Shown here piece after piece: positions 10,073 to 34,538 of a DNA stretch of 64,000 bases. Under the pieces are notes generated by a model. That model was not told the DNA's origin and ran no database searches. It worked only from the letters and a program-made list of their open reading frames with translations. The position numbers and the translations under genes are program-made. Numbering within the stretch: position 1 is the stretch's first letter; each line of letters opens with the position of its first letter. Origin of the DNA: an uncultured Clostridia bacterium (lineage in GTDB: Bacteria > Bacillota > Clostridia > Christensenellales > UBA3700); assembly GCA_947246685.1 (NCBI GenBank), contig CAMXSN010000006.1, positions 3,898-67,897 of the forward strand, given 5' to 3'.

Positions 10073-10093
10073 AAACACCTCCCTATATCCATA

Positions 10094-20347: not shown

Positions 20348-20382
20348 AATTTCACTTCCGTGCATGCCAAGCGCTGACGCTA

Positions 20383-21537
20383 TCAATGCGTGTTGCGAAA
20401 ATTCTCGTAATCATCGAGCAACTCCGCGCTGATACTCGGCGGAATCTTGTTGAACGCTTTTTCAAACATATCCGCTCTGAGAGGGATAGGACTAGAGCTT
20501 CCGCTTTGCTGAATTTCTTCGAGAGCGCATCTGCAGGCTTCCTCCACTATTCCGCATATATCTGCGGCAGAATAATACGCCGTCGTGCGGATATTGCCCT
20601 TCTTATCTTGTTCCGCCGTGAACGTCTCGGTCATATCTACGATCTCTTCCACCGTGATATCTTCTAATTCTATACCGCTGAGTTTGCTCTCTATGATAGC
20701 TTTTTTCGCGCCGAAATCGGGAGGCGTGACGTGTATCAAATGAGAAAATCTCTTATATCTGAGATAAGCGGGATCTATCACGTCGGGACGGTTGGTCGCC
20801 GCGACCATTATTCTCTTGGAACCGTCCACGCCGAATCCGTTGATTCTCTGCAGAAGTTCGGTCGTAACGGCAGCCTTGTAATCTTTGGTATCCTGTGTAC
20901 GTTTGCTGAAAATAGATTCGCATTCGTCAACAAACAGTATCGCGCCGTCGGGACATGCGTCGATTTCTTCGAATATCTGTTTGACTGCCTGCTCGGATTC
21001 GCCGACATAGGACTTGAAGATATCGGCGGGCGTAACGATGAACAACGGTAATTTCATTGCGTTGGCGATAGCCTCGGCAAACATTGTCTTACCCGTACCG
21101 GGCGCGCCGTACATAAGCATACCCAGACCGCCTTCTATCTTGTAATATTCGAGTATCGACGGATTCTGCGCCATAAATATAAAACTTCTGACCAATGCTT
21201 TGACGTTGTCCAAACCCTTGACGTCGTCGAGAGTTGTATCGGGCACTTTGCTCTTGATGACCGAGCCGTAACCTGCCGCCGCGTCGCTGAGCTGCTTGTA
21301 AAACAACTTGTATTTCTCGCTCAGCAATCTGTCTGTGCTTCTCACGGAAAGCGTGCGCGCAATTTGCGCCGCCTGAGAATATTTGGCGCGCAATACGTTG
21401 CGTTCCTCGTCGGACAGATCTTTTTTATCCTTCCTGCCGTTTAGGACGGAACGTATCTCGTCTGTGACTTTGCGGAGCGAGTTTTCCAACTCTTCCACGC
21501 CGCTGTCTTCGGTATTTCTTTTTTTATCCGCTGCCAT
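20383..21537 (-). CDS. classical-clade AAA+ ATPase with helical N-domain (Vps4/katanin-like single cassette)
   Basis: Walker A GAPGTGKT, pore loop KSYVGES, Walker B ILFVDECE and sensor-1 VAATNRPD. SRH IDPAYLRYKRFSHLIHVTPPD has no Pro-Gly and so resembles the Vps4 RRRFE type. The ~120-aa charged helical N-terminus precedes the LDDVKGLDNVK linker. RBS GAGGAG. Confidence 0.85.
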   Translation of the reverse strand: MAADKKRNTEDSGVEELENSLRKVTDEIRSVLNGRKDKKDLSDEERNVLRAKYSQAAQIARTLSVRSTDRLLSEKYKLFYKQLSDAAAGYGSVIKSKVPDTTLDDVKGLDNVKALVRSFIFMAQNPSILEYYKIEGGLGMLMYGAPGTGKTMFAEAIANAMKLPLFIVTPADIFKSYVGESEQAVKQIFEEIDACPDGAILFVDECESIFSKRTQDTKDYKAAVTTELLQRINGFGVDGSKRIMVAATNRPDVIDPAYLRYKRFSHLIHVTPPDFGAKKAIIESKLSGIELEDITVEEIVDMTETFTAEQDKKGNIRTTAYYSAADICGIVEEACRCALEEIQQSGSSSPIPLRADMFEKAFNKIPPSISAELLDDYENFRNTH

Positions 21538-21547: not shown

Positions 21548-22267
21548 TCAGATTATGTCGTCTATATTGATATCCCCGTCGGAACCCTTGTCCGCGCCCG
21601 TATCGGGAGCCGCGGAAGGAGCGGCGGACGAATCTTCTGCAGTTTCCCCGTTCGCCTCTGCGCGGTATTTCGCAAGCTGCTTGGAAGCCTCGTTCTGATA
21701 GCCTGCCATGACGTCGTTGCTTTTCCCGTCCGATTTTGCCATTGACTTTTTGAGCTTTTTATCGAATCCGCTCATTGCCACCAACATAGCGTTGGCAATA
21801 TTGCCGTATCCGTTGACCATATCCATAATGGCTTTCATACGGTTACTGTTCATCTTGACGAATTTTTTGATCTTGCGTCTCTGTTTCATCCTGCCTCTTG
21901 CAGAATACTGCTTGTAATTGTCAAGGCTCATCATCTCGTCGATGAATTTGAACGTATCGTCCATTATGTTGATTGTCTGCGACAGCACCTGCATTGCCTC
22001 TTTCATGGAAAACATCATTCCCACGACGTTCTGCAAGCTGAAAGTAACTGTGTAAAACATCGTCAGCACTCTGGTGTTGAAATGATCGGCGCCGTATTGA
22101 CGCTCGCTCTCAACGACTTTGCGCGCCAGATTTTCCACGGATTTCTCCAATTCGGATTTCTTACCCTCTAAAATCTTACCGTCGAGTTTTCTGAGATTTT
22201 CTTTTTGCATTTCGCTGTATGGATTGGAGAGCCTTTCTCCTCTCTCTCTGTTTCTTTCTCTTGCCAT
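21548..22267 (-). CDS. 239-aa helical protein with basic N-terminus and acidic disordered C-tail ending DGDINIDDII (ESCRT-III/PspA-like architecture, unproven)
   Basis: RBS GGGAGAA. N-terminus MARERNRERGER, long predicted helices, then Ala/Pro/Asp-rich tail SSAAPSAAPDTGADKGSDGDINIDDII. No sequence motif I can assign to a family. Confidence 0.7.
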   Translation of the reverse strand: MARERNRERGERLSNPYSEMQKENLRKLDGKILEGKKSELEKSVENLARKVVESERQYGADHFNTRVLTMFYTVTFSLQNVVGMMFSMKEAMQVLSQTINIMDDTFKFIDEMMSLDNYKQYSARGRMKQRRKIKKFVKMNSNRMKAIMDMVNGYGNIANAMLVAMSGFDKKLKKSMAKSDGKSNDVMAGYQNEASKQLAKYRAEANGETAEDSSAAPSAAPDTGADKGSDGDINIDDII

Positions 22268-22282: not shown

Positions 22283-23797
22283 TTAAAACTGATTGTTGAT
22301 GATGTCATTTATCTGTATGTCGCCGTCCGCCTCTTCTAAATCTTCAGACTGCTCTTGCTTATCCGCCGCGTCTTCTTTGGGGGCGGAAGTCTTTCTTGCA
22401 AATTTACGGCGTCTTTCTTCCATTCTCTTTCTCATCTCTTCTTTTTCTTTTGCTCTGTCCTCGCTCTGCTTGTTTGCAGTTACGTATGTTTGCTCTTTCT
22501 CCATAAGTTTGTTGATAGTTGCAAACCGCTCGTCGGTCATAGCCATGTGTTTTGTCTGCAGAGCAACGTTTTCCATAATATTGTCATAATAACTTATAGC
22601 GAGCGTAATATCCGACTCGGACGCGCCGTAACTCAATATATCAAGAAACTGCCTGAAATCTATATATGCGAACATAGAATAAAACAAGTTGGGTTCTATC
22701 TGCTGATACATAGTGTAGATATGTTGCAATCTCTTGAATTTGGAGAGCAGTCTGCGCATAGCGAGCATATTATTGTTCATCATATTGATACTAGCCCTAT
22801 ATTGCTCTCTTTCCATCTCTCTGATTTCCATATCCTGTTCGAGCATGGTGATTTGAGTATCCGCTTCTTCTTCCATTATTTCGCCTTCGTCGAGAGCCGC
22901 TATTACGTCGGATATATTCTTCTGAATTTCCGCGATATCGGCGTTGATCTGTTTGACTTTCTCGTATGCGTCGTTCTGTACGCTGAACTGCTCTTCAAAT
23001 GATGCCAATCTTGCAAAGAACGCGTCGCCTTTTTCTTTGACGCTCGCAATCTTTGAGAATCCCGAGAATACGTCTTCCTGATATTTGACGATATCTTTAT
23101 CCTTTGCCTGATTTCTCTTATTGACCGCCTTGGTCAGTTCGCACCATTTGTCAGCCTCGTCCAGAGCCTGTCTGAGATGGTCGTTGACGGCGTCGAATAT
23201 CATATTCCTGCCTACGTAATCTCTCCACGCGAACAGACCGTAGGAGCTGTCGCCGAGCAAATTTGCGGCGGCGTCCGCAGCGTCCAACGACGAATTGTCA
23301 AACACGCCGTCAACTTTCTCTCTCAATTCTTTGAGCATATCTTTGGACGCGATAAGAATGCCTTTCTTGTATTCGCTCTTTTCCTCGTAAATCACGTTGT
23401 CTATTCCCATCATAGAATCGTCGATATATTTCAATACTTCTTTCTTGATGTCTGCCATATTCTTTTCTCCTTTTCCCAATTTTATCTTTTTGAAAATCTG
23501 TTCTTTTTTTTCTCTGTATCCGTCAAGTTTCAGCGCCGCGTTGTATTTTGAGAGCAGCGTAGCCATTTCCGTCAGCTCGAAAATAGCGTTTTTGAGATTG
23601 CCGTCGAATCCCTTGTTGATCCCTTCTCGCAAAAGCGACTCGATATCTTCTCTTATTTCGTCGGAAAAATCTTGACAGCGATTGCTGTCGTAACCGTTGT
23701 ATTCTATATCCTTAAACTTTCTTGCGTAACTTATTTTGTTGTCTTCGAGTATACCGACAAGCTTATCCAGCCTTATCAATTCTTCTCCTCCTCGCAT
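22283..23797 (-). CDS. 504-aa coiled-coil protein with acidic C-tail ending DGDIQINDIINNQF
   Basis: All-helical, charge-rich sequence. The likely true start is TTG 23779, preceded by GAGGAGGAG and overlapping the upstream TGA as TTGA. The ATG at 23797 is the track start. Confidence 0.7.
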   Translation of the reverse strand: MRGGEELIRLDKLVGILEDNKISYARKFKDIEYNGYDSNRCQDFSDEIREDIESLLREGINKGFDGNLKNAIFELTEMATLLSKYNAALKLDGYREKKEQIFKKIKLGKGEKNMADIKKEVLKYIDDSMMGIDNVIYEEKSEYKKGILIASKDMLKELREKVDGVFDNSSLDAADAAANLLGDSSYGLFAWRDYVGRNMIFDAVNDHLRQALDEADKWCELTKAVNKRNQAKDKDIVKYQEDVFSGFSKIASVKEKGDAFFARLASFEEQFSVQNDAYEKVKQINADIAEIQKNISDVIAALDEGEIMEEEADTQITMLEQDMEIREMEREQYRASINMMNNNMLAMRRLLSKFKRLQHIYTMYQQIEPNLFYSMFAYIDFRQFLDILSYGASESDITLAISYYDNIMENVALQTKHMAMTDERFATINKLMEKEQTYVTANKQSEDRAKEKEEMRKRMEERRRKFARKTSAPKEDAADKQEQSEDLEEADGDIQINDIINNQF

Positions 23798-24924
23798 ACG
23801 TCGGAGACGAATTTATCCGTCTCTTTTTTGGACGTTCTGCCTTTCTCCGAATATTTATAAAAATCGTCGTCGTAAAAAACGCACGAATTGTATCTGCCCG
23901 CTTTTATAAGCCGCTTAATATCCGCGTTGCCGTTGTCTTCCAAGCATTTGGCTATGCCGGCAATGGTTCTTTTTTTGAGATATTTATGTCCGCCGCGCGC
24001 ATTTACGAAACACATATAAACTCCGCTGTCGGGACAGTCGCTCACGTACTGCGCCACGGCGTTGGAATTCTTAAGCTCGTAAAATTTGCCGTCGATCTCT
24101 TTGTCGTCGTATGCTTTTGCCATTTTAAGACGCAGATCTCTGCCTATGCTTTCAAGCACGGAAAAGCCGTTGTCCTCCTCGGAAAACAGACGCACGCACT
24201 CTTCTTTTGAAAGTTTGAAAATGCCGAAAACAGGAGCGCGCTCCTCGTCCGTACAACTGCGCAATGTGGCAAAAGCCACGCTTGCCGCGTCCTCGTCCTC
24301 CGCCCGTTCGCCGTATAACAGATCAAATTTATCGTAATCTCCTCCGAGATCCGTTATCTTCTCTGCCAAAGCCGCGCGCAGTTCGTCAAGACTCTCATAT
24401 CCGTCGAATTGTCTCTTGACAGCGATCTCGCGCGGAACGTTTTTTAACATATCTATCAAATATCCTGCGCACTGCAGTTTGATATCCGTCAGTTCGTCGA
24501 CGTAACGGTCGTCTCCTTCGGGAGTGTGCACGCCTCTATGAACGTTGAAAAGCACGGCTTTGTAATAAAAATACGCCACGCGCCATCTCTCGGCGCTGCC
24601 CGTATTGAAATCCACGTAGCCCCTGTCATAGTAATACCCCATACGCATAAGCGCTGAAGGATGAAACATAAACGCCGCTTCATAACACAGATTGACCGCT
24701 TTATCGAGATATTTGAATCTCGTCCTCTTGTCTTCGTTGGAAGACGTGAGCCATTTGAAATAATATTCCTCGGAGCGAACGAACAGCTCTCTGTTGAGCG
24801 CATTGATCTCCAGCTCCGTGTCCGTATCGGGGAATACGTCCTTTTTGCAATGCGGACAGCACCACCTGCCGTCATACAGCTCGAGCGGTCTGTCTATATC
24901 TTGATTGCAATTTCCGCATTTCAT
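23776..24924 (-). CDS. 382-aa protein with N-terminal Zn-ribbon, one Sel1/TPR-like repeat and an unknown C-terminal domain
   Basis: RBS AAGGAG. MKCGNCNQ...CCPHCKK is a four-Cys ribbon. AAFMFHPSALMRMGYYYDRGYVDFNTGSAERWRVAYFYYKAV fits the Sel1 repeat pattern. Confidence 0.65.
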   Translation of the reverse strand: MKCGNCNQDIDRPLELYDGRWCCPHCKKDVFPDTDTELEINALNRELFVRSEEYYFKWLTSSNEDKRTRFKYLDKAVNLCYEAAFMFHPSALMRMGYYYDRGYVDFNTGSAERWRVAYFYYKAVLFNVHRGVHTPEGDDRYVDELTDIKLQCAGYLIDMLKNVPREIAVKRQFDGYESLDELRAALAEKITDLGGDYDKFDLLYGERAEDEDAASVAFATLRSCTDEERAPVFGIFKLSKEECVRLFSEEDNGFSVLESIGRDLRLKMAKAYDDKEIDGKFYELKNSNAVAQYVSDCPDSGVYMCFVNARGGHKYLKKRTIAGIAKCLEDNGNADIKRLIKAGRYNSCVFYDDDFYKYSEKGRTSKKETDKFVSDVCEEEKN

Positions 24925-24938: not shown

Positions 24939-27900
24939 TTAAGACGCCTTTCGCTCGATCTTGAAATCAATAAGCGTGTTTGTGAATTCATAATTAACCG
25001 ACGATACCGATGCCGAGACCGAATAATTGCCTACCGCGGTCGGCGCGCTCGCAAGCAGCCTGCCCTTGGAATCGTAATACGCATATCCGTTTAACTTGAT
25101 ATCCGAAGAATACTCTTTGCCGTCCTTGACTATCGTAGGAATGCCGGACGCGGTGTTCCACTGCAACGCGACGCTCTTTTTATTGATGATAAAATCGCAC
25201 GATTCATATTTAACGTCATAATTATTTATTACGCCGCTCTCTGGCAAGCTCAATGTGAGAGTGTATTTGCCGGCGTTTTTAGCGCTTATCGCACTGCCGC
25301 CGTATATAGGCGTCCCGAAATCTTCTTTCTTATCCTTTGTTGCAAGACCGCTCAACGTAAAGCCGAAATTGCCGCCGGTCTTGCCGTCGTAAGTCTTTGC
25401 CGACGCAACGGCTTTCGCCACAAGAGTACGTTTGGTTATCTCAAAATCCTTGGAGTCGTCGCCGATAAGTTGATAATTATCCGCATAAACGCCGCCCAAA
25501 GCGACCTGCGCCGTATACTTGCCGACGTTGAGTTGGGCGGAAGTATACTTCAGCGAAGAGATCATTGCCGTTTGCTGATTTGCAACCGCGTTTGTTATAG
25601 AGGACACTCTTGCGTTGTGATTCTGACCGTCGTAAACAAACTTGGAGTATTTCTCGTCCCATACAACTCGTACTTGGCGTTTAACTATCGAATAGGACGT
25701 TTCAACGGGCGCGTCAAGTCTGTAATTGCCATCAATAGGAAGATCCGCGCCGACGGTATAGCCGTCTCCGACGTTGACGTTGTTTTCATACCCGTAATAA
25801 TCTATCGGCACGGGCTTATCTCTGTCCAGCGCGCCTATTACCATCAAGTCGGGGTGCTGCGCGACGCCGGCGTAAACCAATTGAACGTTCTCCGCCCATT
25901 TTGCCGTCACGGTAGCCCTTTCGATGACGTAATCGCAGTTGCGATTGACGATCGTATAATTGCCGTTTGCGGTGCTGACTCTAGCGACGTAAGCGCCTGC
26001 GTCAATACCGGCGCCCGTCACGTCGGTTTGAATTTGACCGTCTTTTGCTATACCTGTTACGGTAGCGTTAGGCGCCTTGTAACTTCCGTCGTATACGAAT
26101 TGAGTATTAGACCACACCGCCTCAACTTCTATGGGAAGTATCTCGTAGGCAAAACTTCCCCCCGAGCCTATTTTGTAACAGTCTGCTCCGACCGTAAGTT
26201 CTATATTCGCCGTGTATCTGCCGGCATCGGAATTGATATGATTGGATATAGCGTATTCGATACCGTCGCCTTCAATCAACTGCGACGTATCGTAATCTAC
26301 GTAAACTTCTTTATTCTCGCCGTCGTATACGTCCTGATCAAAATCCGTCCAGACAAAATCCAAAGCCTTTTTATCAACCGACACGTCTATGACGAAAGTC
26401 TCTTGCGAACTGAGAGAGGTTTCTTCGGAAGTCGCTACGACTATGACGGAAAACGCTCCGCTCATGCTCGGAAGAACTCTGTCGTATATCATTTGAGCGC
26501 CGCTCTGCATAAACGCGTCTTTGCAATACCATGAATACGACAAATCATATCCCGACTTAGGCGCCTTTGCCGCCGCCGACAGAATCAACGTATCGCCGTA
26601 AACGTACTTCTCTGCGTTGGGCGTAATTTTGCCGTCATAAGGTTTTTTCAGCGTCCATTCCGGTTCGACTGCCGTCGCGTTGTAATATCCGTTCGCATTG
26701 CGTCTGAGGTAATCGGCGAGACTTGAAAATTCGTTGACGCCGCATTTCCATTTGATATCGAATCCATCTCTCGACAAATCTTTGAGGAGCTCGTCCGCGC
26801 GGCTGAGAGCCGTCAATCTGTAATTGCGTATACTGCCGCCTGCCTCTATCGTCTTGATCGAATCGTCAAAACTGAACTTGGTATCGTTGCCGTCGCCTAT
26901 CTCCACGGCGAAAACTCTCTCGAAATTAACTTGGGCTTTAACGACGTTGTTAACTATGCTTACGCCTTGCAGATTTCCTTGAGACGTGACTATTTCTTTG
27001 AGCATATAGCCGTTGTTTTGATAATTCCAATACAAATCTTCGTCGTCGGACTTATCAGAATATTTTACGTAATCGACTTTGTCGCCGCAGAACGACAAAT
27101 CAAACTTATTGCCTTTTTTGCCTATCCACGTGGGAATATAGCTGTTGTCGGTCAATATCAAATCGTCTGCGTTGTAGGCAAACGTAACGTACGCTTCGTC
27201 GTCGGCAAGCCCCGTAGGATAAACGTTGTTTGCCAATACCACGCTCTGTCTTTCCGAATATAATTCCTGTCTGTAACTGTCGATGAGCTTTTTGTTTACG
27301 CCCAATTTCAACGTGTCGTTCAACTCGCCTAAATAATATTTCTCGTCGTACAGACGCATCCTTTTTTCTCCGACTATTTCGACGCTGGCTATGGATGCGT
27401 CGGCAAACAGAGCGTAACTGACAGCCGTTACGTCCTTGCCGTTGAAAGTTAGAGGTACGCGCACCTTATCGCTTCTGCCCTCGAGCACTCCGTCGGCAAA
27501 ATACGAATCGCTGGCTTGGTCGTATTTGAAAGCCAAACTCCTGTATTCGTCTACGTAACCCTGTCCGAGAAAACCGTAATCCATTATATATACCGAATAC
27601 GCTCCCGATATCGCCACCGTTAACGCGCTCATGGCTATAACGGTCGCTTTGACCCACGGTTTTTTCTTGAGTATCGGATAAAGCGCCGCTATCGTAACGG
27701 CAACAAAACTGACCGCATGCGCAACTGCGAACAAAGCCGTCGCCGCGCCTGTCGAATAGGTCAGCTCCCCGCCGCTCATAACTCCCAACGTAGAACACGC
27801 GAATATAAACGTCAAAGCAAGATAAACTATCCACACCGTGAGCGAATATCTAAAACGGAAATTGGTAAACACTATGCCCACGATAAACAAAGCGTCAAAG

Positions 27901-28097
27901 ATCAGATTGAACACTGGCAGCACGATAAAACGCGCGTCGAAGCCCGATACAGCACACACTATCAGCAACACGAGGTCGCACACCGCCGCGGTAATGGAAG
28001 CGATGAGCAAAAATAGCTTGCTGCCGCCGAACCGCTTGCGGTTGGCGGAAGAATAATCTATATTTTCGCTGCCTGAATATAAGCCGTTTCTATTCAT
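24939..28097 (-). CDS. 1052-aa polytopic membrane protein with a large extracytoplasmic region ending in six MBG/YDG-type repeats
   Basis: RBS AAGGAGG and an ATGA overlap with the upstream gene. Five hydrophobic helices lie in aa ~29-170. The last 477 aa form six ~75-85-aa repeats, each with xVxW...(V/T)YDG...G(K/R)Y...NY...(F/Y)xIxK. Confidence 0.75.
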   Translation of the reverse strand: MNRNGLYSGSENIDYSSANRKRFGGSKLFLLIASITAAVCDLVLLIVCAVSGFDARFIVLPVFNLIFDALFIVGIVFTNFRFRYSLTVWIVYLALTFIFACSTLGVMSGGELTYSTGAATALFAVAHAVSFVAVTIAALYPILKKKPWVKATVIAMSALTVAISGAYSVYIMDYGFLGQGYVDEYRSLAFKYDQASDSYFADGVLEGRSDKVRVPLTFNGKDVTAVSYALFADASIASVEIVGEKRMRLYDEKYYLGELNDTLKLGVNKKLIDSYRQELYSERQSVVLANNVYPTGLADDEAYVTFAYNADDLILTDNSYIPTWIGKKGNKFDLSFCGDKVDYVKYSDKSDDEDLYWNYQNNGYMLKEIVTSQGNLQGVSIVNNVVKAQVNFERVFAVEIGDGNDTKFSFDDSIKTIEAGGSIRNYRLTALSRADELLKDLSRDGFDIKWKCGVNEFSSLADYLRRNANGYYNATAVEPEWTLKKPYDGKITPNAEKYVYGDTLILSAAAKAPKSGYDLSYSWYCKDAFMQSGAQMIYDRVLPSMSGAFSVIVVATSEETSLSSQETFVIDVSVDKKALDFVWTDFDQDVYDGENKEVYVDYDTSQLIEGDGIEYAISNHINSDAGRYTANIELTVGADCYKIGSGGSFAYEILPIEVEAVWSNTQFVYDGSYKAPNATVTGIAKDGQIQTDVTGAGIDAGAYVARVSTANGNYTIVNRNCDYVIERATVTAKWAENVQLVYAGVAQHPDLMVIGALDRDKPVPIDYYGYENNVNVGDGYTVGADLPIDGNYRLDAPVETSYSIVKRQVRVVWDEKYSKFVYDGQNHNARVSSITNAVANQQTAMISSLKYTSAQLNVGKYTAQVALGGVYADNYQLIGDDSKDFEITKRTLVAKAVASAKTYDGKTGGNFGFTLSGLATKDKKEDFGTPIYGGSAISAKNAGKYTLTLSLPESGVINNYDVKYESCDFIINKKSVALQWNTASGIPTIVKDGKEYSSDIKLNGYAYYDSKGRLLASAPTAVGNYSVSASVSSVNYEFTNTLIDFKIERKAS

Positions 28098-29752
28098 TTC
28101 GCTGCCTCCTTGTCGGAATTGCCCTTAGGCGCGCTGAGATAACCGCTGCTCTTGGCGGTATCTTTATTAAATATAAGCACAGATTCGTCGATCATAAACA
28201 TAATGCAATCTTCGTCTTCCTTGCAATATTTCTTTTTGTTGAGACTGCCTATTCTCTTGACCAAAGACAGCATTCCCGAATATTTGCGATATAGCTTATT
28301 ACCCTGTTTGTATTCCGCGTCGTCTATCGCGTCTATGCCCAATTTGGTTATTTTGCAGAAATCGCAAACGTAATCGGTCGAATTAGTTTCGGAGTAAAAC
28401 GATCTTCCGCAACATGAACAACGCGCAATTTTATCTTTAGGCACCAACGTCATTCTGTCTCTGACAAAGGCAAGATTCTTAGTATATCTAGCTATTCCGT
28501 CTTCGCAGACGTATACGACCTCGGGATGCGGACAGCGTTTGCATTTTCTCACTCCGCCGTCAAGCACGGCAGTATCGTCCTCGCAAACGTATTTGACGCA
28601 TCTGCCGGCAAGTCTCGCGTTCTCCGAGCAACTAATCCTGAGCAAGTGCGAAGTAAACGTTCCGCCGGATTTTATCTGTCTTATTATCTCTTCGCTAAGA
28701 CCGAGCCCTTGATGGGCAGGATTTATCAACGCTGTTTTCTCTACTCCGTCAAATACGTATTTGATCTTATTGAACTCGATAAGAGTAGATTTTTTGCGGC
28801 AGCTGTTGCAATAAAGACTCAACCTGCCTCCTATGCCCAATATCGCTTTGAGCGCGACCTTGCCGTCTAGTCTTACGTCGTAGTTATCTTTTCTCCACTG
28901 AAAATGCAGGACGTTGAGAAGAGACAGATTTAGGCACGTCAAATCAACGTTGTCGTTGGGTCCCTTCTCCACCATAATTCCCACGGCGTTCTCGTCTCTG
29001 CCGTCGGCTAACACGACGTAATCCGACAAATCCGCTCCTTGAGAATTACCGTCGGGATATACGAGTTTGTCCAAAGCATTGACGACGGTATCGGTAAGTT
29101 CCGCGCTGTTTTGCATAAGTTCATCTTCTTCCCTTTCCGAATCGAACGTGGAAAGATACGAGTTGATGACTTCGGCTTCTTCCTTGCCGTAAGGAAGTAT
29201 TTTTTTACCTACTTTTCTAAAAAACACTTTGCCTAGCACCGGCACCGCTTCGCCCGTTCCGTCGGTGATCTCCAACCTCAACGAGGCTCCGTAAACGTCT
29301 TCCAAACTCTCCGACTCGTCGCCGCGTCTAATATCGAATACGTAATTATCAAAGAAGCTCGATAGCACGTTGTTTATCAGCGCACAATGACTTTCTATCA
29401 ACTCGTTGGATATTACGTGCCTTCTGGGGCTGTATTCGACGATAGAATAATTGCGGTGAAAATGTTCCTTGACCGACTCGACGAACATAAGCCATTCGGC
29501 GGTGTCGTTTTTGACGCTCTCGCCTCTGAACATTCCAAACCATGACGCCCCGTTGTCGCCCATTACCGCATTGAACGAACCGTCGTCGCGCGCAGCCGCG
29601 CCGCGAGCCAATATAAATTCATGCGAGGGAGTAACTATCCTGTCTGCGTCCGCCGACAAAACCGATCCTTCTTTTATGCAATTTTCGCGGTACAATTTCA
29701 CCACGCTGTCAAACGTCTTGCCGTATTCGCTTCCAATATAAATCTTAGCCAT
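28094..29752 (-). CDS. 552-aa hypothetical protein with several CxxC Zn-ribbon-like pairs in the C-terminal half
   Basis: RBS GGAGGCGGT. CNSCRKK, CKRCPHPE and CSCCGRSF...CDFC. No other recognisable motif. Confidence 0.65.
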   Translation of the reverse strand: MAKIYIGSEYGKTFDSVVKLYRENCIKEGSVLSADADRIVTPSHEFILARGAAARDDGSFNAVMGDNGASWFGMFRGESVKNDTAEWLMFVESVKEHFHRNYSIVEYSPRRHVISNELIESHCALINNVLSSFFDNYVFDIRRGDESESLEDVYGASLRLEITDGTGEAVPVLGKVFFRKVGKKILPYGKEEAEVINSYLSTFDSEREEDELMQNSAELTDTVVNALDKLVYPDGNSQGADLSDYVVLADGRDENAVGIMVEKGPNDNVDLTCLNLSLLNVLHFQWRKDNYDVRLDGKVALKAILGIGGRLSLYCNSCRKKSTLIEFNKIKYVFDGVEKTALINPAHQGLGLSEEIIRQIKSGGTFTSHLLRISCSENARLAGRCVKYVCEDDTAVLDGGVRKCKRCPHPEVVYVCEDGIARYTKNLAFVRDRMTLVPKDKIARCSCCGRSFYSETNSTDYVCDFCKITKLGIDAIDDAEYKQGNKLYRKYSGMLSLVKRIGSLNKKKYCKEDEDCIMFMIDESVLIFNKDTAKSSGYLSAPKGNSDKEAAK

Positions 29753-29763: not shown

Positions 29764-32571
29764 TCAGTTATCCATGGACAGAATTTCTTTTATATCCGCC
29801 ACTTTGTCAGATTCTTTCCTTAGATTGTTGCAGAAAGACTCGCCGTTGTCGTGTTTGAAATCCCACGACGCCTTGATATACGCCGCAAACGTCCTTGCAA
29901 TCACGGGATATAGATAACCTCTTTCGTGATTTTGTTCGCACTTGGGACAACGCGCAATCCATTTCTCGTCAAACGATATTACGTGAGGTCTGGGAGAACA
30001 CTGCGAATAATCGCACGATCCGCACAGTTCAACGCTGGCTTTACCTACGCCGTACCTGCACTTCTGCGGACATGACGAACGGCTGGAACAGCTTGCGCAC
30101 AGACTCTTGAGTTCAACTGCGGAAATATTGCGATTGAGCGCATAAGCGTTGAGCACGCTGCACTTACCTTTGAGCTCGCTCTTGAATCTCTGACAGTGCA
30201 ACATCGAGCATATCTTGGAACAGTAATAATCTCTGTCGCCTTTATCTCCGCTGCTGCACAGCGATCCTCTGTCCGTATCCGTCTTGGATATACACGTGTA
30301 TCCGCCGTCGCCCACGCTTCTGCCGAATACCGAACCGCACGTGCCGCACTTGAATTCGTACACGTTTATCTCTTCCATAACCGTGCCTCGGGGATCATCC
30401 TGAATACACTGCCTTTTTGCTATACAGAAAAGATTGTTTTTCTTCTTGCGCGCATCGTATTCTTCTTTTGTATAAAGCGCCACTTTGCCGCAAGCGGGAC
30501 ATCTGAGCGCAACCATACGCTCGTTGTTACTGCCCGCGATAATCGTCGCGTCGCCGCTGTTGCTGGAAAGCAATCCTATACTGTTGAAGTACGCAAGAGC
30601 AAAACCTTCGAGCTTATTCATATCTGCAAACGAATATATCTTGACGTCGCTAGACTGTCCGAGACGGAATATTCTGCCTATTCTCTGATCCATAGACAAC
30701 GGATCGGGCGTGACCTGGAAGTTGATGATGATTCTGCTGTCCTGCAAGTTTACGCCCTCGGTAAACGACGGGTCGGTAACGAGTAACACCGCGTCTTCTT
30801 TGGATGTAAATTCGTCTATAACCTGTCTTTTGTTATCGTCTCTGCCTATTAATATCCTTGATGAAAATTCGCCGTCCGCGGCAAGTTCCGCACCGACTTT
30901 TTCCCATTGACGGTACCCTTTGCTTGTCTTGGGCAAGTCGTAATCGAAAAATACCAACGCTCTCTCGCCCGGATGTTCGCGCAGAACGGATTTCATCTCC
31001 TCGAATTTATACGCAAACGTATCTTTATCAGCCGCGGTGAAGATAAATTTGTTGTCGCATTCTCCCGCGGCTTTTCTTGAGAATTGCTCCCAATAAAATT
31101 TAAGCGAATTTTTCTTTTCAAAAACTTTTTCGTCCCCGAAAGATTTTAGTCCGCCCAAAATGTTGGGCACCAATATCTCAGCATATTTCTCCTGAGCGTC
31201 GCCGTGCAAGGAAATTTCCTGCGCATAGTCTTTCAGCGAATATGCTCTGCCGTCGACGTTGAGCGCTCGATTCCCGTTGATTACGTCCAGACTTGCTTCC
31301 ATGTCGCAACCGTCTCCGTATTTGAACCTTATTATCTTAGGAGCGTTTTCTTTGACAGGGAAGAAATATCTGTTGAAAACGAATCTGGTCTTGGTAAGTT
31401 CGTTGGGCTGACGGATCATTATGGTGCGCAACACGCCGTTGTGATAAGCGCTCGCTACTCTTTTGAGCACCTCGGAGCGTATTGGACCGCTGTCTTTAAG
31501 AAACTCTTCTCTTAGCAATTGTTTTTCGCCCTGAGTATAAGATTGAAATTTCTCGTATTCTCCCTTTGCTTTCAAAAAAGCTTCAAACTGAGCTGAGTAA
31601 TTGTTGTCTACTTCAAACTTCTTAACCGCGGTGATAAACTCTGCCACGGTATTCGCGCCTCTGCACACGTTCTGCTTGTAATAGAGTTTCTCTTTTCTGT
31701 ATTCGTCAGTGCGCTCTTTATCCTCTTTTATATCGAAATCGTCGGGATTGCCGCCCTTACATCTGATAAAATACCACAGTCTGAACATCTTTTCCAGATT
31801 GCCGGAATGAGGCGTAGCGGAAAGAAGCACGCAGTAAGTGCTGTTGGCTTTTTTCTTTGTCTGCATAAGCAAAGACAGTAGTTTCATAGCCTTTGCATAT
31901 CTGCCTTCTTCCGCGCACAGATGATGAGCCTCGTCGACGACAACGACGTCGAATAACACGTTTTTAATCGCGCTTTCTCGCCAGTTGACGAAATCCTCCG
32001 CCTTGACGATAAACGGCTTTGTCGGTCTGACGGTCGCTCCGTCCGACAAAGTCTCGCACTCGCCGAACTCCGCGTCGGCGACTCCGACAAGCACGCCTTT
32101 GCCCAGTCCGAATTTATTTTCAAGCACGTCTATCCAGCTGTCGTAAACCTGCGACGGCACGACCAACAACAGCGATTTCATCTTACCTCTGACGGCAAGC
32201 TCGCTCAGCACTGCGCACGCCTCAAAAGTTTTGCCGCTGCCCACAACGTCCGCGAGCAGACCGAAGCCGCGCAGCTCCTTGAGAAAATGCGTCGCCGCAA
32301 GTTGCTGATGTCTCAATATTACCTGATTGCTGTTGACGCTCCTATGCACATGCGATTTGGTTATTCCGTAATCTCCGCCGTCGGATTCGTATACTTCCGG
32401 CGCTATTTTCAACGCGGCGAAATCGTCGTATCTGTCCAGTTCTTCGGCGCAGTGGGTAAGCTCGGCTATCCGCGCGTCGAAGGGGCGTATCTCACCTGCA
32501 ATCTTCGACCTCTGAATATCCCTGTCAAAAGCTCCGTCCGTACATTTAAGAGTAAATCTTTTCTTTTTCAT
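29764..32571 (-). CDS. SNF2-family (RapA/HepA-like) helicase/translocase with ~200-aa Cys-rich C-terminal module
   Basis: Start ATG 32571, 5 nt after GGAGGGG; the track start 32589 is a TTG. Motifs LLADVVGSGKTFEA (I), VVVDEAHH (II), LLSATPHSG (III), TEGVNLQ and QRIGRIFRLGQ (VI). The tail holds about 21 Cys, including CPAC, CGTC, CASC, CGSC and CPKC. Confidence 0.85.
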   Translation of the reverse strand: MKKKRFTLKCTDGAFDRDIQRSKIAGEIRPFDARIAELTHCAEELDRYDDFAALKIAPEVYESDGGDYGITKSHVHRSVNSNQVILRHQQLAATHFLKELRGFGLLADVVGSGKTFEACAVLSELAVRGKMKSLLLVVPSQVYDSWIDVLENKFGLGKGVLVGVADAEFGECETLSDGATVRPTKPFIVKAEDFVNWRESAIKNVLFDVVVVDEAHHLCAEEGRYAKAMKLLSLLMQTKKKANSTYCVLLSATPHSGNLEKMFRLWYFIRCKGGNPDDFDIKEDKERTDEYRKEKLYYKQNVCRGANTVAEFITAVKKFEVDNNYSAQFEAFLKAKGEYEKFQSYTQGEKQLLREEFLKDSGPIRSEVLKRVASAYHNGVLRTIMIRQPNELTKTRFVFNRYFFPVKENAPKIIRFKYGDGCDMEASLDVINGNRALNVDGRAYSLKDYAQEISLHGDAQEKYAEILVPNILGGLKSFGDEKVFEKKNSLKFYWEQFSRKAAGECDNKFIFTAADKDTFAYKFEEMKSVLREHPGERALVFFDYDLPKTSKGYRQWEKVGAELAADGEFSSRILIGRDDNKRQVIDEFTSKEDAVLLVTDPSFTEGVNLQDSRIIINFQVTPDPLSMDQRIGRIFRLGQSSDVKIYSFADMNKLEGFALAYFNSIGLLSSNSGDATIIAGSNNERMVALRCPACGKVALYTKEEYDARKKKNNLFCIAKRQCIQDDPRGTVMEEINVYEFKCGTCGSVFGRSVGDGGYTCISKTDTDRGSLCSSGDKGDRDYYCSKICSMLHCQRFKSELKGKCSVLNAYALNRNISAVELKSLCASCSSRSSCPQKCRYGVGKASVELCGSCDYSQCSPRPHVISFDEKWIARCPKCEQNHERGYLYPVIARTFAAYIKASWDFKHDNGESFCNNLRKESDKVADIKEILSMDN

Positions 32572-32585
32572 TATCCCCTCCGCCG

Positions 32586-34538
32586 TCAATCGGCTCCTTC
32601 CACGTCGAATTCCTCGACGCCTTGGAATTGAAGAACTATGTCTTTGTATCTGGCAAACTTAACGTTTGTCGGGTCGTCGGCTTTTCTTACGGCTATGGTG
32701 TCGTAAGCTCCGTTCTTGGATACGTTGTTGCGTATGAAAGGCTGCGCTCTGCCGTCTCCGTCGATCTTAACTCCCTCAAGGAAGTATAACACGCCTTTTA
32801 TCTGCACCGGTATGGGCGATTTTTTGCCTTCTTTGCAATAATAAAACAGTATCTTGCCTTTGCTCTTACCGCCCGACACCACTCGCAGACCTATCTTCGT
32901 CTGCATCTTCACGCGCTGTTCGGAGTCAGGTTCGCCTATCACGTATACTCCCGACGATTCCGTCGTAGAGAAAATCTCCTCATTGTCTACCGACCCCGAC
33001 CATCTGTCCATATATTTGAGGCTGGATTCGGTATAATACGTTCCTCCGTCGGGAGGAAGTATCTGACCTCTTTTGAGGAAAATGTCCAGTATCTTATAGT
33101 ATTTATCTCCGCGCTTGCGATATTGCCAAGTACCGTAAGACAATGCTACCGCCGTCTTGATCTCGTAATTATTGAGCGCAACGATAGCGCCGCCTACCGC
33201 GGGCGCAAACAAAGAATCTTCGTATGAAAGTATCCTGAATCCGTCGTCTCTGTTCTCGTAATCGTCAAACGTGACGACGTCGACGTTCAATCCCGCTTTG
33301 CGTAGTTTGGAGCGCAGATAACCTATCAGCCCGTAGGTCTCCGTAACTCCTCCCGACAAGAGAAGTTTGTCCACGTCTTTATTGATACTTCTGTTCAACT
33401 CCTCGATAATATAATCCGCTATCTTAGCCGCCACGCCGCAATCGCCGTCGATACCCACCGCCTTGCAAAAGTCATCTCTCGTCAACATTCTCTGCACCGT
33501 CACGTCTCTATAGAGCGATATAGGCGCTCCGTCTGGAAACACGTTGTCGTAAGTTGCGTCGGGAAGAGACAGCGCCGTCTTGACCTTTTTGATCTCGGTC
33601 ATAAACAAAAACTGTTTAGAATGCAATCCCCGCTCGGCGATATATCCGTCTTCTCCCGACGGCGGCGCGCCCGGAGTCTCTCTCGCCCCGATGCTGTCTT
33701 CTATATAATCTCTTAACGCAATGTCAAAATCGTTGCCGCCTATCTCCATAGGCTCGTTGTGACCGTCAACGCCGTCCACAAGCACGCTCTTGACCTTTCC
33801 GCCCGAAAGACTGAGTTTTGCAACGGAAATATCCTCTTCGCCCATATCGACGATAATAACGCCCTCTCCGCCGTCCAAAATACCTCTGTGAAATGCAAAA
33901 AGTCCCAGCGCTCTCGTAGATGACATTACCTTCTTAACATTAGAGCCGACCGAACGCTCTACCAAACGCGTCAACTCCTCTATGTATTCCGCGCCCGCTT
34001 TGGCAGGATAAATCAGCGAATAATCGACGCTGTCGAATGCTAGATTTCTCTGCGCTTGCAATCTCTCTATCGCAGGCAAAACAGTCTTAGAAAATAGATA
34101 ATCAAAAAACTCTTCGCACACCTGCATCGGCGTCCTGTCTGCGCAAAAAGTCATGTCGAGATCTTTGGCAAGCATCAGATTTTCGGAAATCTTGCGTTTT
34201 GTCGGAAAATAAAATTTGGGGAAATCTCTGCCTTCTCGATAACATACGCGATTGCTATCGCATACGGCTTTATCCGATCTTTTCAGAAGCAAAGACAGCA
34301 GCGTTTTGATCTTGACGACAGTAATAAAAGGTCTGTCGGTGCCTTTATACGCTTCGTCTCCGAACAGCCATCTGCCGTTGTCCTCGTCGTAATACGCTAT
34401 CGCCGACACGACCGCGCTGCCCGTGACTTCCCTGGGCGCCAACTTTCCGTATACCGCCTTATTGGATTCTTTATAGGCAAAAGCAACCTTTACTTTGTCG
34501 CTGCCGACGTCGATTGCAACCTCTAAATTACCTTGCAT
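32586..34538 (-). CDS. divergent Hsp70-like (actin-fold) ATPase with beta-rich C-terminal domain, no lid
   Basis: RBS AAAGGAG. Motifs AIDVGSDKVKVAF (phosphate-1), IIVDMGEEDISV (phosphate-2), EIGGNDFD, LLLSGGVTETYGL and PAVGGAIVA. The C-terminal ~190 aa resemble an SBD-beta (TAVALSYGTW...ILPP...). No EEVD. Confidence 0.8.
   Translation of the reverse strand: MQGNLEVAIDVGSDKVKVAFAYKESNKAVYGKLAPREVTGSAVVSAIAYYDEDNGRWLFGDEAYKGTDRPFITVVKIKTLLSLLLKRSDKAVCDSNRVCYREGRDFPKFYFPTKRKISENLMLAKDLDMTFCADRTPMQVCEEFFDYLFSKTVLPAIERLQAQRNLAFDSVDYSLIYPAKAGAEYIEELTRLVERSVGSNVKKVMSSTRALGLFAFHRGILDGGEGVIIVDMGEEDISVAKLSLSGGKVKSVLVDGVDGHNEPMEIGGNDFDIALRDYIEDSIGARETPGAPPSGEDGYIAERGLHSKQFLFMTEIKKVKTALSLPDATYDNVFPDGAPISLYRDVTVQRMLTRDDFCKAVGIDGDCGVAAKIADYIIEELNRSINKDVDKLLLSGGVTETYGLIGYLRSKLRKAGLNVDVVTFDDYENRDDGFRILSYEDSLFAPAVGGAIVALNNYEIKTAVALSYGTWQYRKRGDKYYKILDIFLKRGQILPPDGGTYYTESSLKYMDRWSGSVDNEEIFSTTESSGVYVIGEPDSEQRVKMQTKIGLRVVSGGKSKGKILFYYCKEGKKSPIPVQIKGVLYFLEGVKIDGDGRAQPFIRNNVSKNGAYDTIAVRKADDPTNVKFARYKDIVLQFQGVEEFDVEGAD

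What the first reader, a model, noticed from the sequence alone, without database searches (positions are those of the whole stretch)
20383..21537. Single-cassette classical AAA+ ATPase with Vps4/katanin-like SRH and a helical N-domain in a bacterium
Seen: GAPGTGKT, pore loop KSYVGES, ILFVDECE, VAATNRPD, and an SRH reading IDPAYLRYKRFSHLIHVTPPD.

Established knowledge: FtsH/proteasomal-type AAA proteins carry L-R-P-G-R-F-D here. Vps4/katanin/spastin-type proteins lack the Pro-Gly and read R-R-R-F-E-K/R-R-I-Y-I-P-L-P, which this protein parallels (RYKRF-SHLIHVTPP).

The ~120-aa N-terminal region is charged and helical, in the position where Vps4 carries its MIT domain. The protein has no protease domain, no second cassette and no TM segment.

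Inference: it is a substrate-disassembling AAA+ whose clients are probably encoded next door.
Basis: partly seen in the sequence, partly recalled or inferred. Interest (0 to 1): 0.8.

Follow-up and report, generated by a model that had tools for sequence, protein, structure and literature searches.

The report
Orphan AAA ATPase with tail-bearing partner
This gene encodes a real, probably active protein-unfolding motor from an undescribed family in uncultured gut Clostridia; it is not a true Vps4/katanin relative, but it always sits next to a helical partner with a conserved C-terminal "handle", inside an uncharacterised helicase-containing operon.

Summary
Window 20383-21537 (-) encodes a 384-aa single-cassette classical AAA ATPase, and every quoted motif is present.

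The Vps4/katanin reading of the SRH is not supported:
- Vps4, spastin and katanin share a 2-residue SRH deletion. This family keeps the full PAN/p97/FtsH spacing, with Pro-Gly replaced by [YFH]-K (signature AYLR[YFH]KRFS).
- In an NJ tree the family forms its own lineage. It lies outside the meiotic clade (96% bootstrap) and outside PAN/p97-D1/FtsH (100%).
- The N-domain (residues ~12-90) is predicted as a three-helix bundle. MIT domains are its best geometric matches, but no match is statistically significant, and hhalign against MIT gives 0.6% probability.

The "clients next door" inference is well supported. In about 40 species the ATPase is directly preceded by a ~240-aa helical protein. 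That protein's extreme C-terminus ([DG]-I-[DS]-D-I-[VLI]) is conserved behind a hypervariable disordered linker. The partner shows no detectable homology to ESCRT-III or PspA.

The pair, a Zn-ribbon protein and a coiled-coil protein form a conserved core. This core is joined to a swappable helicase module (SNF2, or a Upf1-like helicase that matches the Hhe/PDC-S37 defence models). The window carries a tightly packed 8-gene operon at a stable chromosomal locus.

Verdict: a new family and an undescribed system that may work like Vps4 but is not a Vps4 homologue.

The parts
20383..21537 (-). 384-aa single-cassette classical AAA ATPase (the finding)
   Evidence: ORF. Pfam AAA E 3.9e-32, weak AAA_lid_3 and Vps4_C. 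NCBIfam Cdc48/PAN/CdvC/FtsH partial matches.
21268..21504 (-). N-domain, residues 12-90: predicted three-helix bundle (helices 12-32, 43-66, 70-90). It is basic (pI 9.2) on an acidic protein (pI 5.2).
   Evidence: AF2 model pLDDT 75.7, pTM 0.60. Foldseek best geometric fits are MIT domains, but E >= 0.45. hhalign vs MIT is negative. Charge.
21085..21108 (-). Walker A GAPGTGKT (residues 144-151)
20995..21015 (-). Pore loop 1 KSYVGES (residues 175-181; aromatic Y177)
   Evidence: invariant in the family
20917..20940 (-). Walker B ILFVDECE (D204, E205)
20716..20805 (-). Sensor-1 VAATNRPD plus the SRH IDPAYLRYKRFSHLIHVTPPD. Putative arginine fingers are R260 and R263 (R-x-x-R spacing). The family signature is AYLR[YFH]KRFS.
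   Evidence: MAFFT alignment with PDB-verified references; near-invariant in the family
20398..20442 (-). C-terminal helix PPSISAELLDDYENF following the lid
   Evidence: Best PDB sequence hit of the last 95 aa is Sulfolobus CdvC 4lcb (E 0.0027), followed by NVL/AFG2B/p97 D2 and FIGNL1. Pfam Vps4_C E 0.0011, below cut-off.
21548..22267 (-). 239-aa all-helical partner, 10 nt upstream of the ATPase. It has a long helical hairpin (16-58/63-113), a basic helix (123-177, net +13), a disordered linker (212-231) and a tail.
   Evidence: Partner is directly upstream of the ATPase in 42 of 44 loci; the other two are cut at the contig edge. AF2 pLDDT 54. No Pfam/PADLOC/NCBIfam family.
21551..21574 (-). 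Partner's extreme C-terminal tail DINIDDII (family consensus [DG]-I-[DS]-D-I-[VLI]). It is the candidate recognition motif for the ATPase.
   Evidence: Invariant in close homologues (A1). I235/D237/I238 are among only about 6 near-invariant columns at 20-30% identity (A2). Tails across 40 species; distant loci.
22283..23797 (-). 504-aa coiled-coil protein ending in ...DGDIQINDIINNQF after an acidic linker. It is a second tail-bearing protein.
   Evidence: Orthologues are present in both operon types and carry their own conserved C-terminal motifs.
23776..24924 (-). 382-aa protein with an N-terminal CxxC...CxxC zinc ribbon and one Sel1-like repeat seen by eye
   Evidence: C3, C6, C23 and C26 are invariant (A4). 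Conserved in both operon types. Pfam Sel1 is not significant.
24939..28097 (-). 1052-aa protein with an N-terminal polytopic TM region and extracellular-type repeats. Found in type-A operons only and evolving fast (~35% identity).
28094..29752 (-). 552-aa Cys-rich protein with multiple CxxC motifs (type-A module)
29764..32589 (-). 941-aa SNF2-family helicase
   Evidence: Pfam SNF2-rel_dom/Helicase_C. PADLOC BrxHI/II and DrmD at ~1e-30. NCBIfam DrmD/DpdE partial matches.
32586..34538 (-). 650-aa first gene of the operon, with an Hsp70/actin-like N-terminal motif (AIDVGSDKVKVAF)
   Evidence: Faint Pfam HSP70; sequence. Linked to SNF2 and w552 also in L042. Promoter-like sites at 34667-34601 and an upstream terminator at 34759-34738.

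Best explanation
The gene encodes an active, ring-forming, substrate-threading classical AAA ATPase from a distinct, lineage-restricted family found in uncultured Christensenellales-type gut Clostridia.

Its dedicated client, or client-delivering partner, is the ~240-aa helical protein encoded immediately upstream. That partner presents a short acidic-hydrophobic motif ([DG]-I-[DS]-D-I-[VLI]-COOH) at the end of a 20-40-residue disordered linker.

The most likely mechanism has three steps:
1. The basic three-helix N-domain of the ATPase docks this tail, in the manner of MIT-MIM recognition, and/or the free C-terminus enters the central pore.
2. The Y177 pore loops then pull on the partner.
3. 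The partner is extracted or unfolded from a higher-order helical assembly. That assembly probably also contains the ~500-aa coiled-coil protein, which has its own conserved tail.

The ATPase would thereby reset or regulate a larger machine that always includes a Zn-ribbon protein and a large helicase (SNF2 or Upf1-like).

Shown: intact ATPase motifs, the conserved pairing, the conserved tail, the operon architecture, and phylogenetic distinctness. Inferred: hexamer formation, tail-ATPase binding, partner polymerisation, and the disassembly role.
For: - Catalytic motifs are intact and family-invariant.
- A partner lies directly upstream of the ATPase in all 42 loci with upstream sequence. The gap is typically about 10-20 nt.
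- The tail is conserved while the linker is hypervariable. This persists at 42-49% ATPase identity.
- The N-domain model has good confidence and is a three-helix bundle. Its best structural superpositions are peptide-binding MIT domains (2w2u_A: TM 0.59/0.76, RMSD 2.3 A).
- The basic N-domain (pI 9.2) complements the acidic tail.
- The partner stays glued to the ATPase even when helicase genes are inserted between it and the coiled-coil gene.
- Tandem partner paralogs occur in L024.
- The window carries eight tightly spaced or overlapping genes with one promoter-like region and no internal terminator.
Against: - There is no direct evidence of binding; complex prediction was not possible.
- The N-domain Foldseek hits are not significant, and hhalign against MIT is negative.
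- The partner model has low confidence (pLDDT 54) and no significant structural or profile match to any polymer-forming family.
- Another operon component could read the tail.
- The tail diverges in the most distant members (DNPEI, GVDII).
Confidence: 0.6

Rival explanations
1. The partner is an adaptor or regulator rather than the substrate. On this reading the ATPase remodels something else in the operon, for example the coiled-coil scaffold or helicase-nucleic-acid complexes. The comparison would be TRIP13/Pch2 resetting HORMA proteins in CBASS, or p97 acting with its adaptors. The tail would only tether the adaptor to the ATPase.
For: - Helicase modules are always present in the cluster, although their type and position vary.
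- The coiled-coil protein has its own conserved C-terminal motif.
- The PADLOC TRIP13 and IetA models hit the ATPase domain.
- The partner's strongly basic helix (net +13) could bind nucleic acid.
Against: - A long disordered linker ending in a free C-terminal motif is typical of a threading initiation site.
- The partner-ATPase adjacency is the tightest linkage in the cluster.
- No HORMA-like or other known adaptor fold was detected.
Confidence: 0.2
2. This is a genuine bacterial Vps4/ESCRT-III-type membrane-remodelling system. The partner, and perhaps the coiled-coil protein, would be a highly diverged ESCRT-III/PspA-superfamily polymer. The N-domain would be a true MIT domain and the tail a new kind of MIM.
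For: - The partner's architecture parallels ESCRT-III: a long alpha-hairpin, further helices, a disordered linker and a C-terminal motif.
- Partner paralog duplication occurs.
- MIT domains are the best geometric fits to the N-domain.
- The C-terminal helix best matches CdvC, and there is a weak Vps4_C hit.
Against: - The SRH lacks the clade-defining 2-residue deletion.
- The ATPase falls outside the meiotic clade at 96% bootstrap.
- hhalign gives 0.6% for N-domain vs MIT, 1.8% for partner vs ESCRT-III and 0.25% for partner vs PspA.
- Pfam Snf7 hit only 1 of 21 partners, at E 0.03. Foldseek E-values are all > 1.
- The operon context is helicases, not membrane proteins.
- The N-domain-to-AAA linker is very short, unlike Vps4.
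Confidence: 0.08
3. The tail is not read by the ATPase at all. It could be a ligand for the Zn-ribbon/Sel1-like protein, in the way TPR/SLR carboxylate clamps bind EEVD-type C-termini. Alternatively it could be a localisation or export signal. The ATPase-partner adjacency would then reflect only shared regulation.
For: - The Zn-ribbon protein is conserved in both operon types and shows a Sel1-like repeat by eye.
- Type-A operons also encode an Hsp70-like protein.
Against: - The Sel1/TPR assignment is not significant.
- The partner is always adjacent to the ATPase, not to the Zn-ribbon gene. In type-B operons the two are separated by about 7 kb.
- No secretion components are present.
Confidence: 0.07
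4. The ATPase is a general-purpose unfoldase or chaperone unrelated to its neighbours, for example one that feeds a protease encoded elsewhere.
For: - The closest sequence relatives are Cdc48-D2/PAN-type unfoldases.
Against: - There is strict co-occurrence and tight spacing with the partner in every assessable locus over 42-100% identity.
- There is no HbYX-type C-terminus for proteasome docking; the protein ends ...ENFRNTH.
- No protease gene is present in the window's operon.
Confidence: 0.05

Closest known systems
Vps4 / CdvC with ESCRT-III (MIT-MIM recruitment, polymer disassembly)
   Same: - Single AAA cassette.
- A small three-helix N-domain in the MIT position.
- A C-terminal helix after the lid; like archaeal CdvC, there is no beta-domain.
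- An adjacent helical partner with a disordered linker and a conserved C-terminal motif, and occasional partner paralogs.
   Different: - The SRH keeps the 2 residues that the meiotic clade has lost, and its arginines are spaced R-x-x-R rather than adjacent.
- It falls outside the clade in the tree.
- No sequence-level MIT or ESCRT-III signal was found.
- The N-domain-to-AAA linker is very short.
- The tail is neither MIM1 nor MIM2.
- The operon partners are helicases, not membrane-remodelling factors.
Cdc48/p97/VAT D2 domain and PAN (proteasomal-type classical AAA unfoldases)
   Same: - These give the highest profile and pairwise scores.
- Same SRH length.
- A DGF-like intersubunit motif (INGFG).
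- An aromatic pore loop.
- A C-terminal PS[IV]S..L..YE.F helix shared with p97-type D2 domains.
   Different: - One cassette only.
- No double-psi-barrel N-domain or coiled-coil/OB N-domain.
- No HbYX tail.
- Pro-Gly in the SRH is replaced by [YFH]-K, and the RFD Asp is replaced by Ser.
- It forms a separate lineage in the tree.
ClpV-VipB (type VI secretion sheath recycling) and CbbX-RbcL tail threading
   Same: - The functional logic is the same: a bacterial AAA+ recognises a short terminal peptide of a structural protein, through an N-domain or the pore, in order to disassemble or remodel an assembly.
   Different: - These belong to unrelated AAA+ clades (Hsp100 and CbbX; CbbX and SpoVK score only ~24 bits).
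- The clients are different.
- This is an analogy from established knowledge and was not tested here.
IetA (Ietis) and TRIP13/Pch2 (CBASS) defence-associated AAA ATPases
   Same: - The ATPase domain matches the PADLOC IetA (1.5e-31) and TRIP13 (3e-16) models and NCBIfam IteA.
- It is embedded in an operon with defence-type helicases.
   Different: - The matches cover only the generic AAA domain.
- There is no IetS protease and no HORMA/CD-NTase partner.
- The other operon proteins match no defence model.
Bacterial Vps4-like ATPases acquired from archaea, next to TPR+6TM proteins (Ravi et al. 2024, PMC11237479)
   Same: - A classical AAA in bacteria with a non-ESCRT-III neighbour.
   Different: - Those are described as true Vps4-like proteins (MIT plus C-terminal oligomerisation domain) with a TPR/6TM neighbour.
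- Here the ATPase is not in the Vps4 clade and the neighbour is a soluble helical protein.
- No direct sequence comparison was possible with these tools.

Membership tests
Classical AAA clade (PF00004) | Walker A/B, sensor-1 Asn, SRH with arginine fingers, and a pore loop with an aromatic residue | tested here: met
   Pfam AAA E 3.9e-32; motifs
Meiotic clade (Vps4/katanin/spastin/fidgetin) | SRH with a 2-residue deletion, giving adjacent Arg-Arg fingers (R-R-R-F/L) | tested here: not met
   In the MAFFT alignment with PDB-verified VPS4B, spastin and katanin, those three show the gap. This family has LR[YFH]KRF at full length, like PAN/p97/FtsH.
Meiotic clade (Vps4/katanin/spastin/fidgetin) | Phylogenetic grouping of the ATPase module with the clade | tested here: not met
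   In the NJ tree (200 bootstraps) the meiotic clade is recovered at 96% and excludes this family. Distances to Vps4/katanin/spastin (0.755-0.782) exceed those to PAN/p97-D2/FtsH (0.728-0.732). Caveats: few references, NJ only, and no archaeal CdvC.
Vps4/CdvC | N-terminal MIT domain | tested here: inconclusive
   The three-helix bundle has pLDDT 76. MIT domains give the best TM-score/RMSD, but Foldseek E >= 0.45. There is no Pfam MIT hit, and hhalign gives 0.6%.
Vps4/CdvC | C-terminal helix (Vps4_C) | tested here: inconclusive
   Pfam Vps4_C E 0.0011, 19.4 bits against a 21.3-bit cut-off. The best PDB hit of the C-terminus is CdvC 4lcb at E 0.0027, but p97-type D2 domains share the same helix.
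Vps4/CdvC | Partner of the ESCRT-III/Snf7/PspA superfamily | tested here: not met
   Pfam Snf7 hit 1 of 21 partners at E 0.03, and there was no PspA_IM30 hit. hhalign gives 1.8% and 0.25%. Foldseek E > 1 on a low-confidence model.
Cdc48/p97/VAT | Two tandem AAA cassettes plus a double-psi-barrel N-domain | tested here: not met
   384 aa with one cassette. NCBIfam CDC48 scores 148.9 bits against a cut-off of 802 and covers only the D2 part.
FtsH | N-terminal TM segments and a C-terminal M41 protease | tested here: not met
   No Peptidase_M41 and no TM segment. NCBIfam FtsH scores 111.6 bits against a cut-off of 600.
PAN/Rpt/Mpa proteasomal ATPases | N-terminal coiled-coil plus OB domain, and a C-terminal HbYX/GQYL motif | tested here: not met
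   The N-domain is a three-helix bundle with no OB domain. The C-terminus is ...YENFRNTH. NCBIfam PAN scores 133.6 bits against a cut-off of 500.
CbbX / SpoVK / ClpX | Family-level profile match | tested here: not met
   Only 23-24 bits, against cut-offs of 359-459
Ietis (IetA-IetS) | AAA ATPase IetA paired with the subtilase IetS | tested here: not met
   The IetA models hit only the AAA domain. There is no protease in the window's operon.

The most novel reading that the evidence does not exclude
The partner, and possibly the coiled-coil protein, forms a polymeric or scaffold assembly. The ATPase disassembles it after a MIT-like N-domain reads a new kind of C-terminal motif. That would be a bacterial, independently evolved or extremely diverged functional counterpart of Vps4-ESCRT-III. 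It would serve as the conserved core of a previously undescribed multi-gene helicase-containing (probably anti-phage or anti-MGE) system.
Probability: 0.15. Interest if true: 0.85.

Novelty: new variant of a known kind. Interest (0 to 1): 0.55.

Why it matters
- Reviews currently state that a Vps4-like regulator of helical polymers appears absent from bacteria (PMC7619361). This locus is not a Vps4 homologue. It does offer a clean, testable bacterial case of the same logic: an AAA motor, a peptide-reading N-domain and a tail-bearing helical client.
- It defines an unannotated AAA family (databases call it only "ATP-binding protein") with a diagnostic SRH variant, PG replaced by [YFH]K.
- It exposes a conserved 6-8-gene system in abundant but uncultured gut Clostridia. 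Most of that system's components match no known family.
- The swappable helicase modules are of the type seen in phage-defence systems.

Tried and rejected
- Foldseek of the partner model against PDB gave nothing significant. Four ESCRT-III-superfamily entries appeared among the E > 3 noise, and I treat them as non-evidence.
- A Pfam scan of 21 diverse partners at E <= 10 found no recurrent family.
- The third homologue search, using the diverse partner profile, added only 5 new proteins because the index is word-limited.
- hhalign of the N-domain against MIT, and of the partner against ESCRT-III and PspA, was negative in all three cases.
- Pfam Sel1/TPR on the Zn-ribbon family was not significant.
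- PADLOC, PHROGs and NCBIfam on the other operon proteins hit only the helicases.
- The phage collection returned only generic FtsH-like hits for the ATPase and none for the partner.
- Literature searches for a described system found nothing matching.
- I considered tail/N-domain covariation analysis but did not run it. About 30 distinct sequences with strong phylogenetic structure would not give an interpretable signal.
- I considered a chimeric N-domain-linker-tail structure prediction.
Full report
**Observation.** Window 20383-21537 (minus strand) is an ATG-initiated 384-aa ORF.
- Walker A GAPGTGKT (144-151)
- pore loop KSYVGES (175-181)
- Walker B ILFVDECE (200-207)
- sensor-1 VAATNRPD (245-252)
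- SRH IDPAYLRYKRFSHLIHVTPPD (254-274)

Pfam assigns one AAA domain (140-270, E 3.9e-32), a weak AAA_lid_3 and a sub-threshold Vps4_C (333-382, E 0.0011). There is no protease, no second cassette and no other domain. The only correction is that the helical N-domain ends at about residue 93 rather than 120.

**Which AAA is it?**
- NCBIfam profiles all match only partially and far below their cut-offs. The scores are CDC48 (D2 part) 148.9 bits, PAN 133.6, CdvC 129.7, FtsH 111.6, IteA 98 and the Pup-proteasome ATPase 96. CbbX, SpoVK and ClpX reach only ~23-24 bits.
- Among solved structures, the best per-domain matches are VAT/p97 D2 at ~112 bits.
- The last 95 residues (lid plus terminal helix) best match Sulfolobus CdvC/Vps4 4lcb (E 0.0027; PSISAELLDDYENF ~ PSVNQELLKAYEAW). 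NVL, AFG2B and p97 D2 and fidgetin-like-1 follow closely. This helix is therefore common to the meiotic clade and Cdc48-type D2 domains and is not diagnostic.

**SRH test.** I recalled reference sequences and verified them against PDB. VPS4B, spastin, PAN and p97 201-767 were 100% identical to their PDB entries. Katanin p60 was identical apart from the construct's E-to-Q change. The E. coli FtsH and yeast Vps4 references in the same alignment and tree were recalled but not verified. The MAFFT alignment shows three things:
- Vps4, spastin and katanin share a 2-residue deletion (…R-R--RF…).
- PAN, p97 D1/D2 and FtsH have L/R-R-P/F-G-R-F/L-D.
- This family has the full-length version, with Pro-Gly replaced by [YFH]-K and the Asp replaced by Ser: AYLR[YFH]KRFS.

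That signature is nearly invariant in close homologues. It is retained in single-cassette relatives at only 38-50% identity (P0166, P0168, P0169, P0173, P0218, P0297). The inferred parallel with R-R-R-F-E-K is a mis-registration: the putative arginine fingers (R260, R263) have p97/FtsH-type spacing.

**Tree.** A neighbour-joining tree (271 trimmed columns, 200 bootstraps) places the family in its own lineage. The meiotic clade is recovered at 96% without it, and PAN+p97-D1+FtsH at 100% without it. Distances from the window protein are nearly equal to all references: 0.728 to PAN and p97-D2, 0.732 to FtsH, and 0.755-0.782 to Vps4/katanin/spastin. Limitations are the small number of references, the NJ method and the absence of archaeal CdvC.

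**Family size.** The exhaustive representative search found only about 10 single-cassette clusters at the 50% identity level. Beyond those, multi-cassette Cdc48-like proteins take over the list. This is a small, lineage-restricted family.

**N-domain.** AlphaFold2 on residues 1-100, with a 29-sequence alignment, gives pLDDT 75.7 and pTM 0.60. It predicts three helices at 12-32, 43-66 and 70-90.
- Foldseek against PDB returns no significant hit (best E 0.45), as is usual for small bundles.
- The best geometric fits are peptide-binding MIT domains: Sulfolobus CdvC MIT in complex with an ESCRT-III peptide (2w2u_A, TM 0.59/0.76, RMSD 2.3 A over 77 columns), MITD1 (4a5x), calpain-7 MIT:IST1 (8uc6) and Vps4 MIT:Vfa1 (4niq).
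- At sequence level there is nothing. Pfam finds no MIT, and hhalign of a 14-sequence N-domain alignment against a small MIT alignment gives 0.6% probability.
- The N-domain is basic (pI 9.2) on an acidic protein (pI 5.2).
- It joins the AAA module through a very short linker that carries an invariant [YF]-G-S motif. Vps4, by contrast, has a long flexible linker.

The verdict on MIT is that the fold topology is compatible but homology is not shown.

**The partner.** Ten nucleotides upstream lies a 239-aa ORF (21548-22267). Its homologues have an invariant extreme C-terminus, GDINIDDI[VI], behind a hypervariable Ser/Gly/Ala linker (A1).
- I collected 39 loci from GTDB species plus loci from metagenome contigs. 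All come from uncultured Christensenellales-type Clostridia (Borkfalkia, Coproplasma, Limadaptatus, Pumilibacteraceae and others).
- In every locus with upstream sequence (42 of 44), the ATPase is directly preceded by a 237-261-aa helical protein ending in [DG]-I-[DSG]-D-I-[VLIT]. The gap is typically about 10-20 nt.
- In a diverse alignment at 19-30% identity (two close relatives at 55-59%), only about six columns are near-invariant, and three of them are in the tail (I235, D237, I238; A2).
- The pattern persists at 42-49% ATPase identity, with tails …GDSGVDII* and …GDAGDNPEI*.
- L024 has two tandem partner paralogs, each with a linker and tail.
- The AF2 model of the partner has low confidence (pLDDT 54). 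It is all-helical: a hairpin at 16-58/63-113, helices at 123-177 and 185-211, a disordered stretch at 212-234, and then the tail.
- Helix 63-113 is hydrophobic, helix 123-177 is strongly basic (net +13) and the tail is acidic.
- No family is detectable. Pfam, NCBIfam, PADLOC and PHROGs gave nothing meaningful. Foldseek E-values are all > 1. hhalign gives 1.8% against ESCRT-III and 0.25% against PspA.

**The operon.** The ATPase is the last of eight tightly packed or overlapping genes (34538 to 20383). Promoter-like sites lie at 34667-34601 after a terminator at 34759-34738, and there is no convincing internal terminator. Across species there are two architectures.
- Type A (the window, L006-L015, L044, and L047 at 49% ATPase identity): [Hsp70/actin-like 650 aa] - SNF2 helicase - Cys-rich 552 aa - TM+repeat 1052 aa - Zn-ribbon 382 aa - coiled-coil 504 aa - partner - AAA.
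- Type B (the majority): Zn-ribbon ~381 - coiled-coil ~500 - one or two ~640-aa proteins with a C-terminal HExxH…E-x-DA-x-AF signature - a ~1500-aa Upf1-like SF1 helicase (DUF4011/AAA_11/AAA_12/MTES_1575) - partner - AAA.
- L042 shows a third arrangement.

The invariant core is therefore Zn-ribbon + coiled-coil + partner + AAA, joined to a swappable helicase module.
- The window's SNF2 helicase matches BrxHI/II, DrmD and DpdE models at about 1e-30.
- The type-B helicase matches PDC-S37 (8e-106), Hhe, ProA and Mokosh MkoA/C.
- All other components match nothing.
- The coiled-coil proteins carry their own conserved C-terminal motifs: type A has D[DE]L[ST]QII[SN]TIT(P)KK and type B has [IF]IPLSDxDK. 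The window's copy ends DGDIQINDIINNQF, which resembles the partner's tail.

**Genomic context.** The locus sits in ordinary core chromosome among sugar-utilisation genes (GH3, GH20, arabinofuranosidase, fucose isomerase, FGGY kinases). One tRNA-Gly is present and there are no mobile-element hallmarks. The downstream flank is syntenic in related species, with the MFS transporter at 86-89% identity followed by HTH, class-IV aminotransferase and alanine racemase genes. The operon's own proteins are less conserved than that neighbour: AAA ~79%, SNF2 ~64%, Zn-ribbon ~63%, partner ~56%, coiled-coil ~51% and the TM-repeat protein ~35%. No relatives were found in the phage collection beyond generic FtsH-like hits.

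**Mechanism (inference).**
- The intact Walker A/B, sensor-1, R-x-x-R fingers and Y177 pore loop predict an active ring translocase.
- The partner has a free, conserved, acidic-hydrophobic C-terminal motif on a 20-40-residue disordered tether. It is always translationally adjacent to an ATPase with a basic peptide-binding-type N-domain.
- This argues that the ATPase docks and/or threads the partner from its C-terminus and extracts it from an assembly that probably includes the coiled-coil protein.
- The logic matches Vps4-ESCRT-III, ClpV-VipB or CbbX-RbcL, in a lineage that is homologous to none of them beyond the AAA fold.
- Whether the partner is the substrate or an adaptor cannot be decided here. 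Nor can it be decided whether the whole operon is an immune system, as the helicase modules and the fast-evolving components suggest, or a housekeeping machine, as the vertical, syntenic, core-chromosome location suggests.

**Literature.** A 2025 review states that a Vps4-like ATPase "appears absent in bacteria" (PMC7619361). Ravi et al. 2024 report sporadic archaeal-derived Vps4-like genes in bacteria next to TPR+6TM proteins (PMC11237479). Neither paper, nor any of my other searches, describes the system found here.

**Verdict.** The protein is not a member of the Vps4/katanin clade, because two defining features were tested and not met. It plausibly works like one, and its client-next-door relationship is the strongest result of this study. 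It is a new family and an undescribed operon, so I rate it a new variant of a known kind, with interest 0.55.

Noticed in passing
window 22283-23797 (-); orthologues in L004-L044: The ~500-aa coiled-coil proteins have their own conserved C-terminal motif after an acidic linker (type A D[DE]L[ST]QII[SN]TIT(P)KK; type B [IF]IPLSDxDK). The window copy ends DGDIQINDIINNQF and L042's 935-aa version ends ADIDDITR, both resembling the partner tail.
   Followed up: partly
L024 8469-9200 and 9221-9979: There are two tandem paralogs of the partner protein, each with a Gly/Ser-rich linker and an acidic-hydrophobic tail (…NSIYDL, …SGVDDL).
   Followed up: partly
L001 871-2805 and 2815-4698; L004 2829-4742: Type-B operons encode one or two ~640-aa proteins with a C-terminal HEC[FM]H … E-x-DA-x-AF signature, which looks like an ImmA/IrrE-type metallopeptidase. 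They have no hit in Pfam, PADLOC or NCBIfam.
   Followed up: partly
window 32586-34538 (-) and 28094-29752 (-): The first operon gene begins with an Hsp70/actin-like phosphate-binding motif (AIDVGSDKVKVAF) but has only a faint Pfam HSP70 hit. The 552-aa protein carries at least four CxxC pairs. Both travel with the SNF2 helicase, including in L042.
   Followed up: partly
window 24939-28097 (-): This 1052-aa protein has an N-terminal polytopic membrane region and repeated extracellular-type modules. It is only ~35% identical between species whose neighbouring MFS transporter is ~88% identical, making it the fastest-evolving operon component.
   Followed up: partly
window 21262-21270 (-), residues Y90-G91-S92: An invariant [YF]-G-S motif lies at the junction of the N-domain and the AAA module. 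It is conserved even where N-domain identity falls to ~17-24%. Its function is unknown; it could be a hinge or a modification site.
   Followed up: no
window 10001-12000 and 62001-64000: G+C dips to 0.35 and 0.27 respectively, against a window average of ~0.46. The two unannotated ORFs at 10094-11470 and 12366-13661 have no Pfam hit.
   Followed up: no
window 18920-20350 (-): The mechanical ORF list starts the downstream MFS_2 transporter at a TTG that overlaps the ATPase stop. Gene calls on most identical contigs start it 36 nt after the stop (475 aa). It is probably co-transcribed, since there is no terminator between the two genes, but it is not part of the conserved system, because other species have different downstream genes.
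   Followed up: partly
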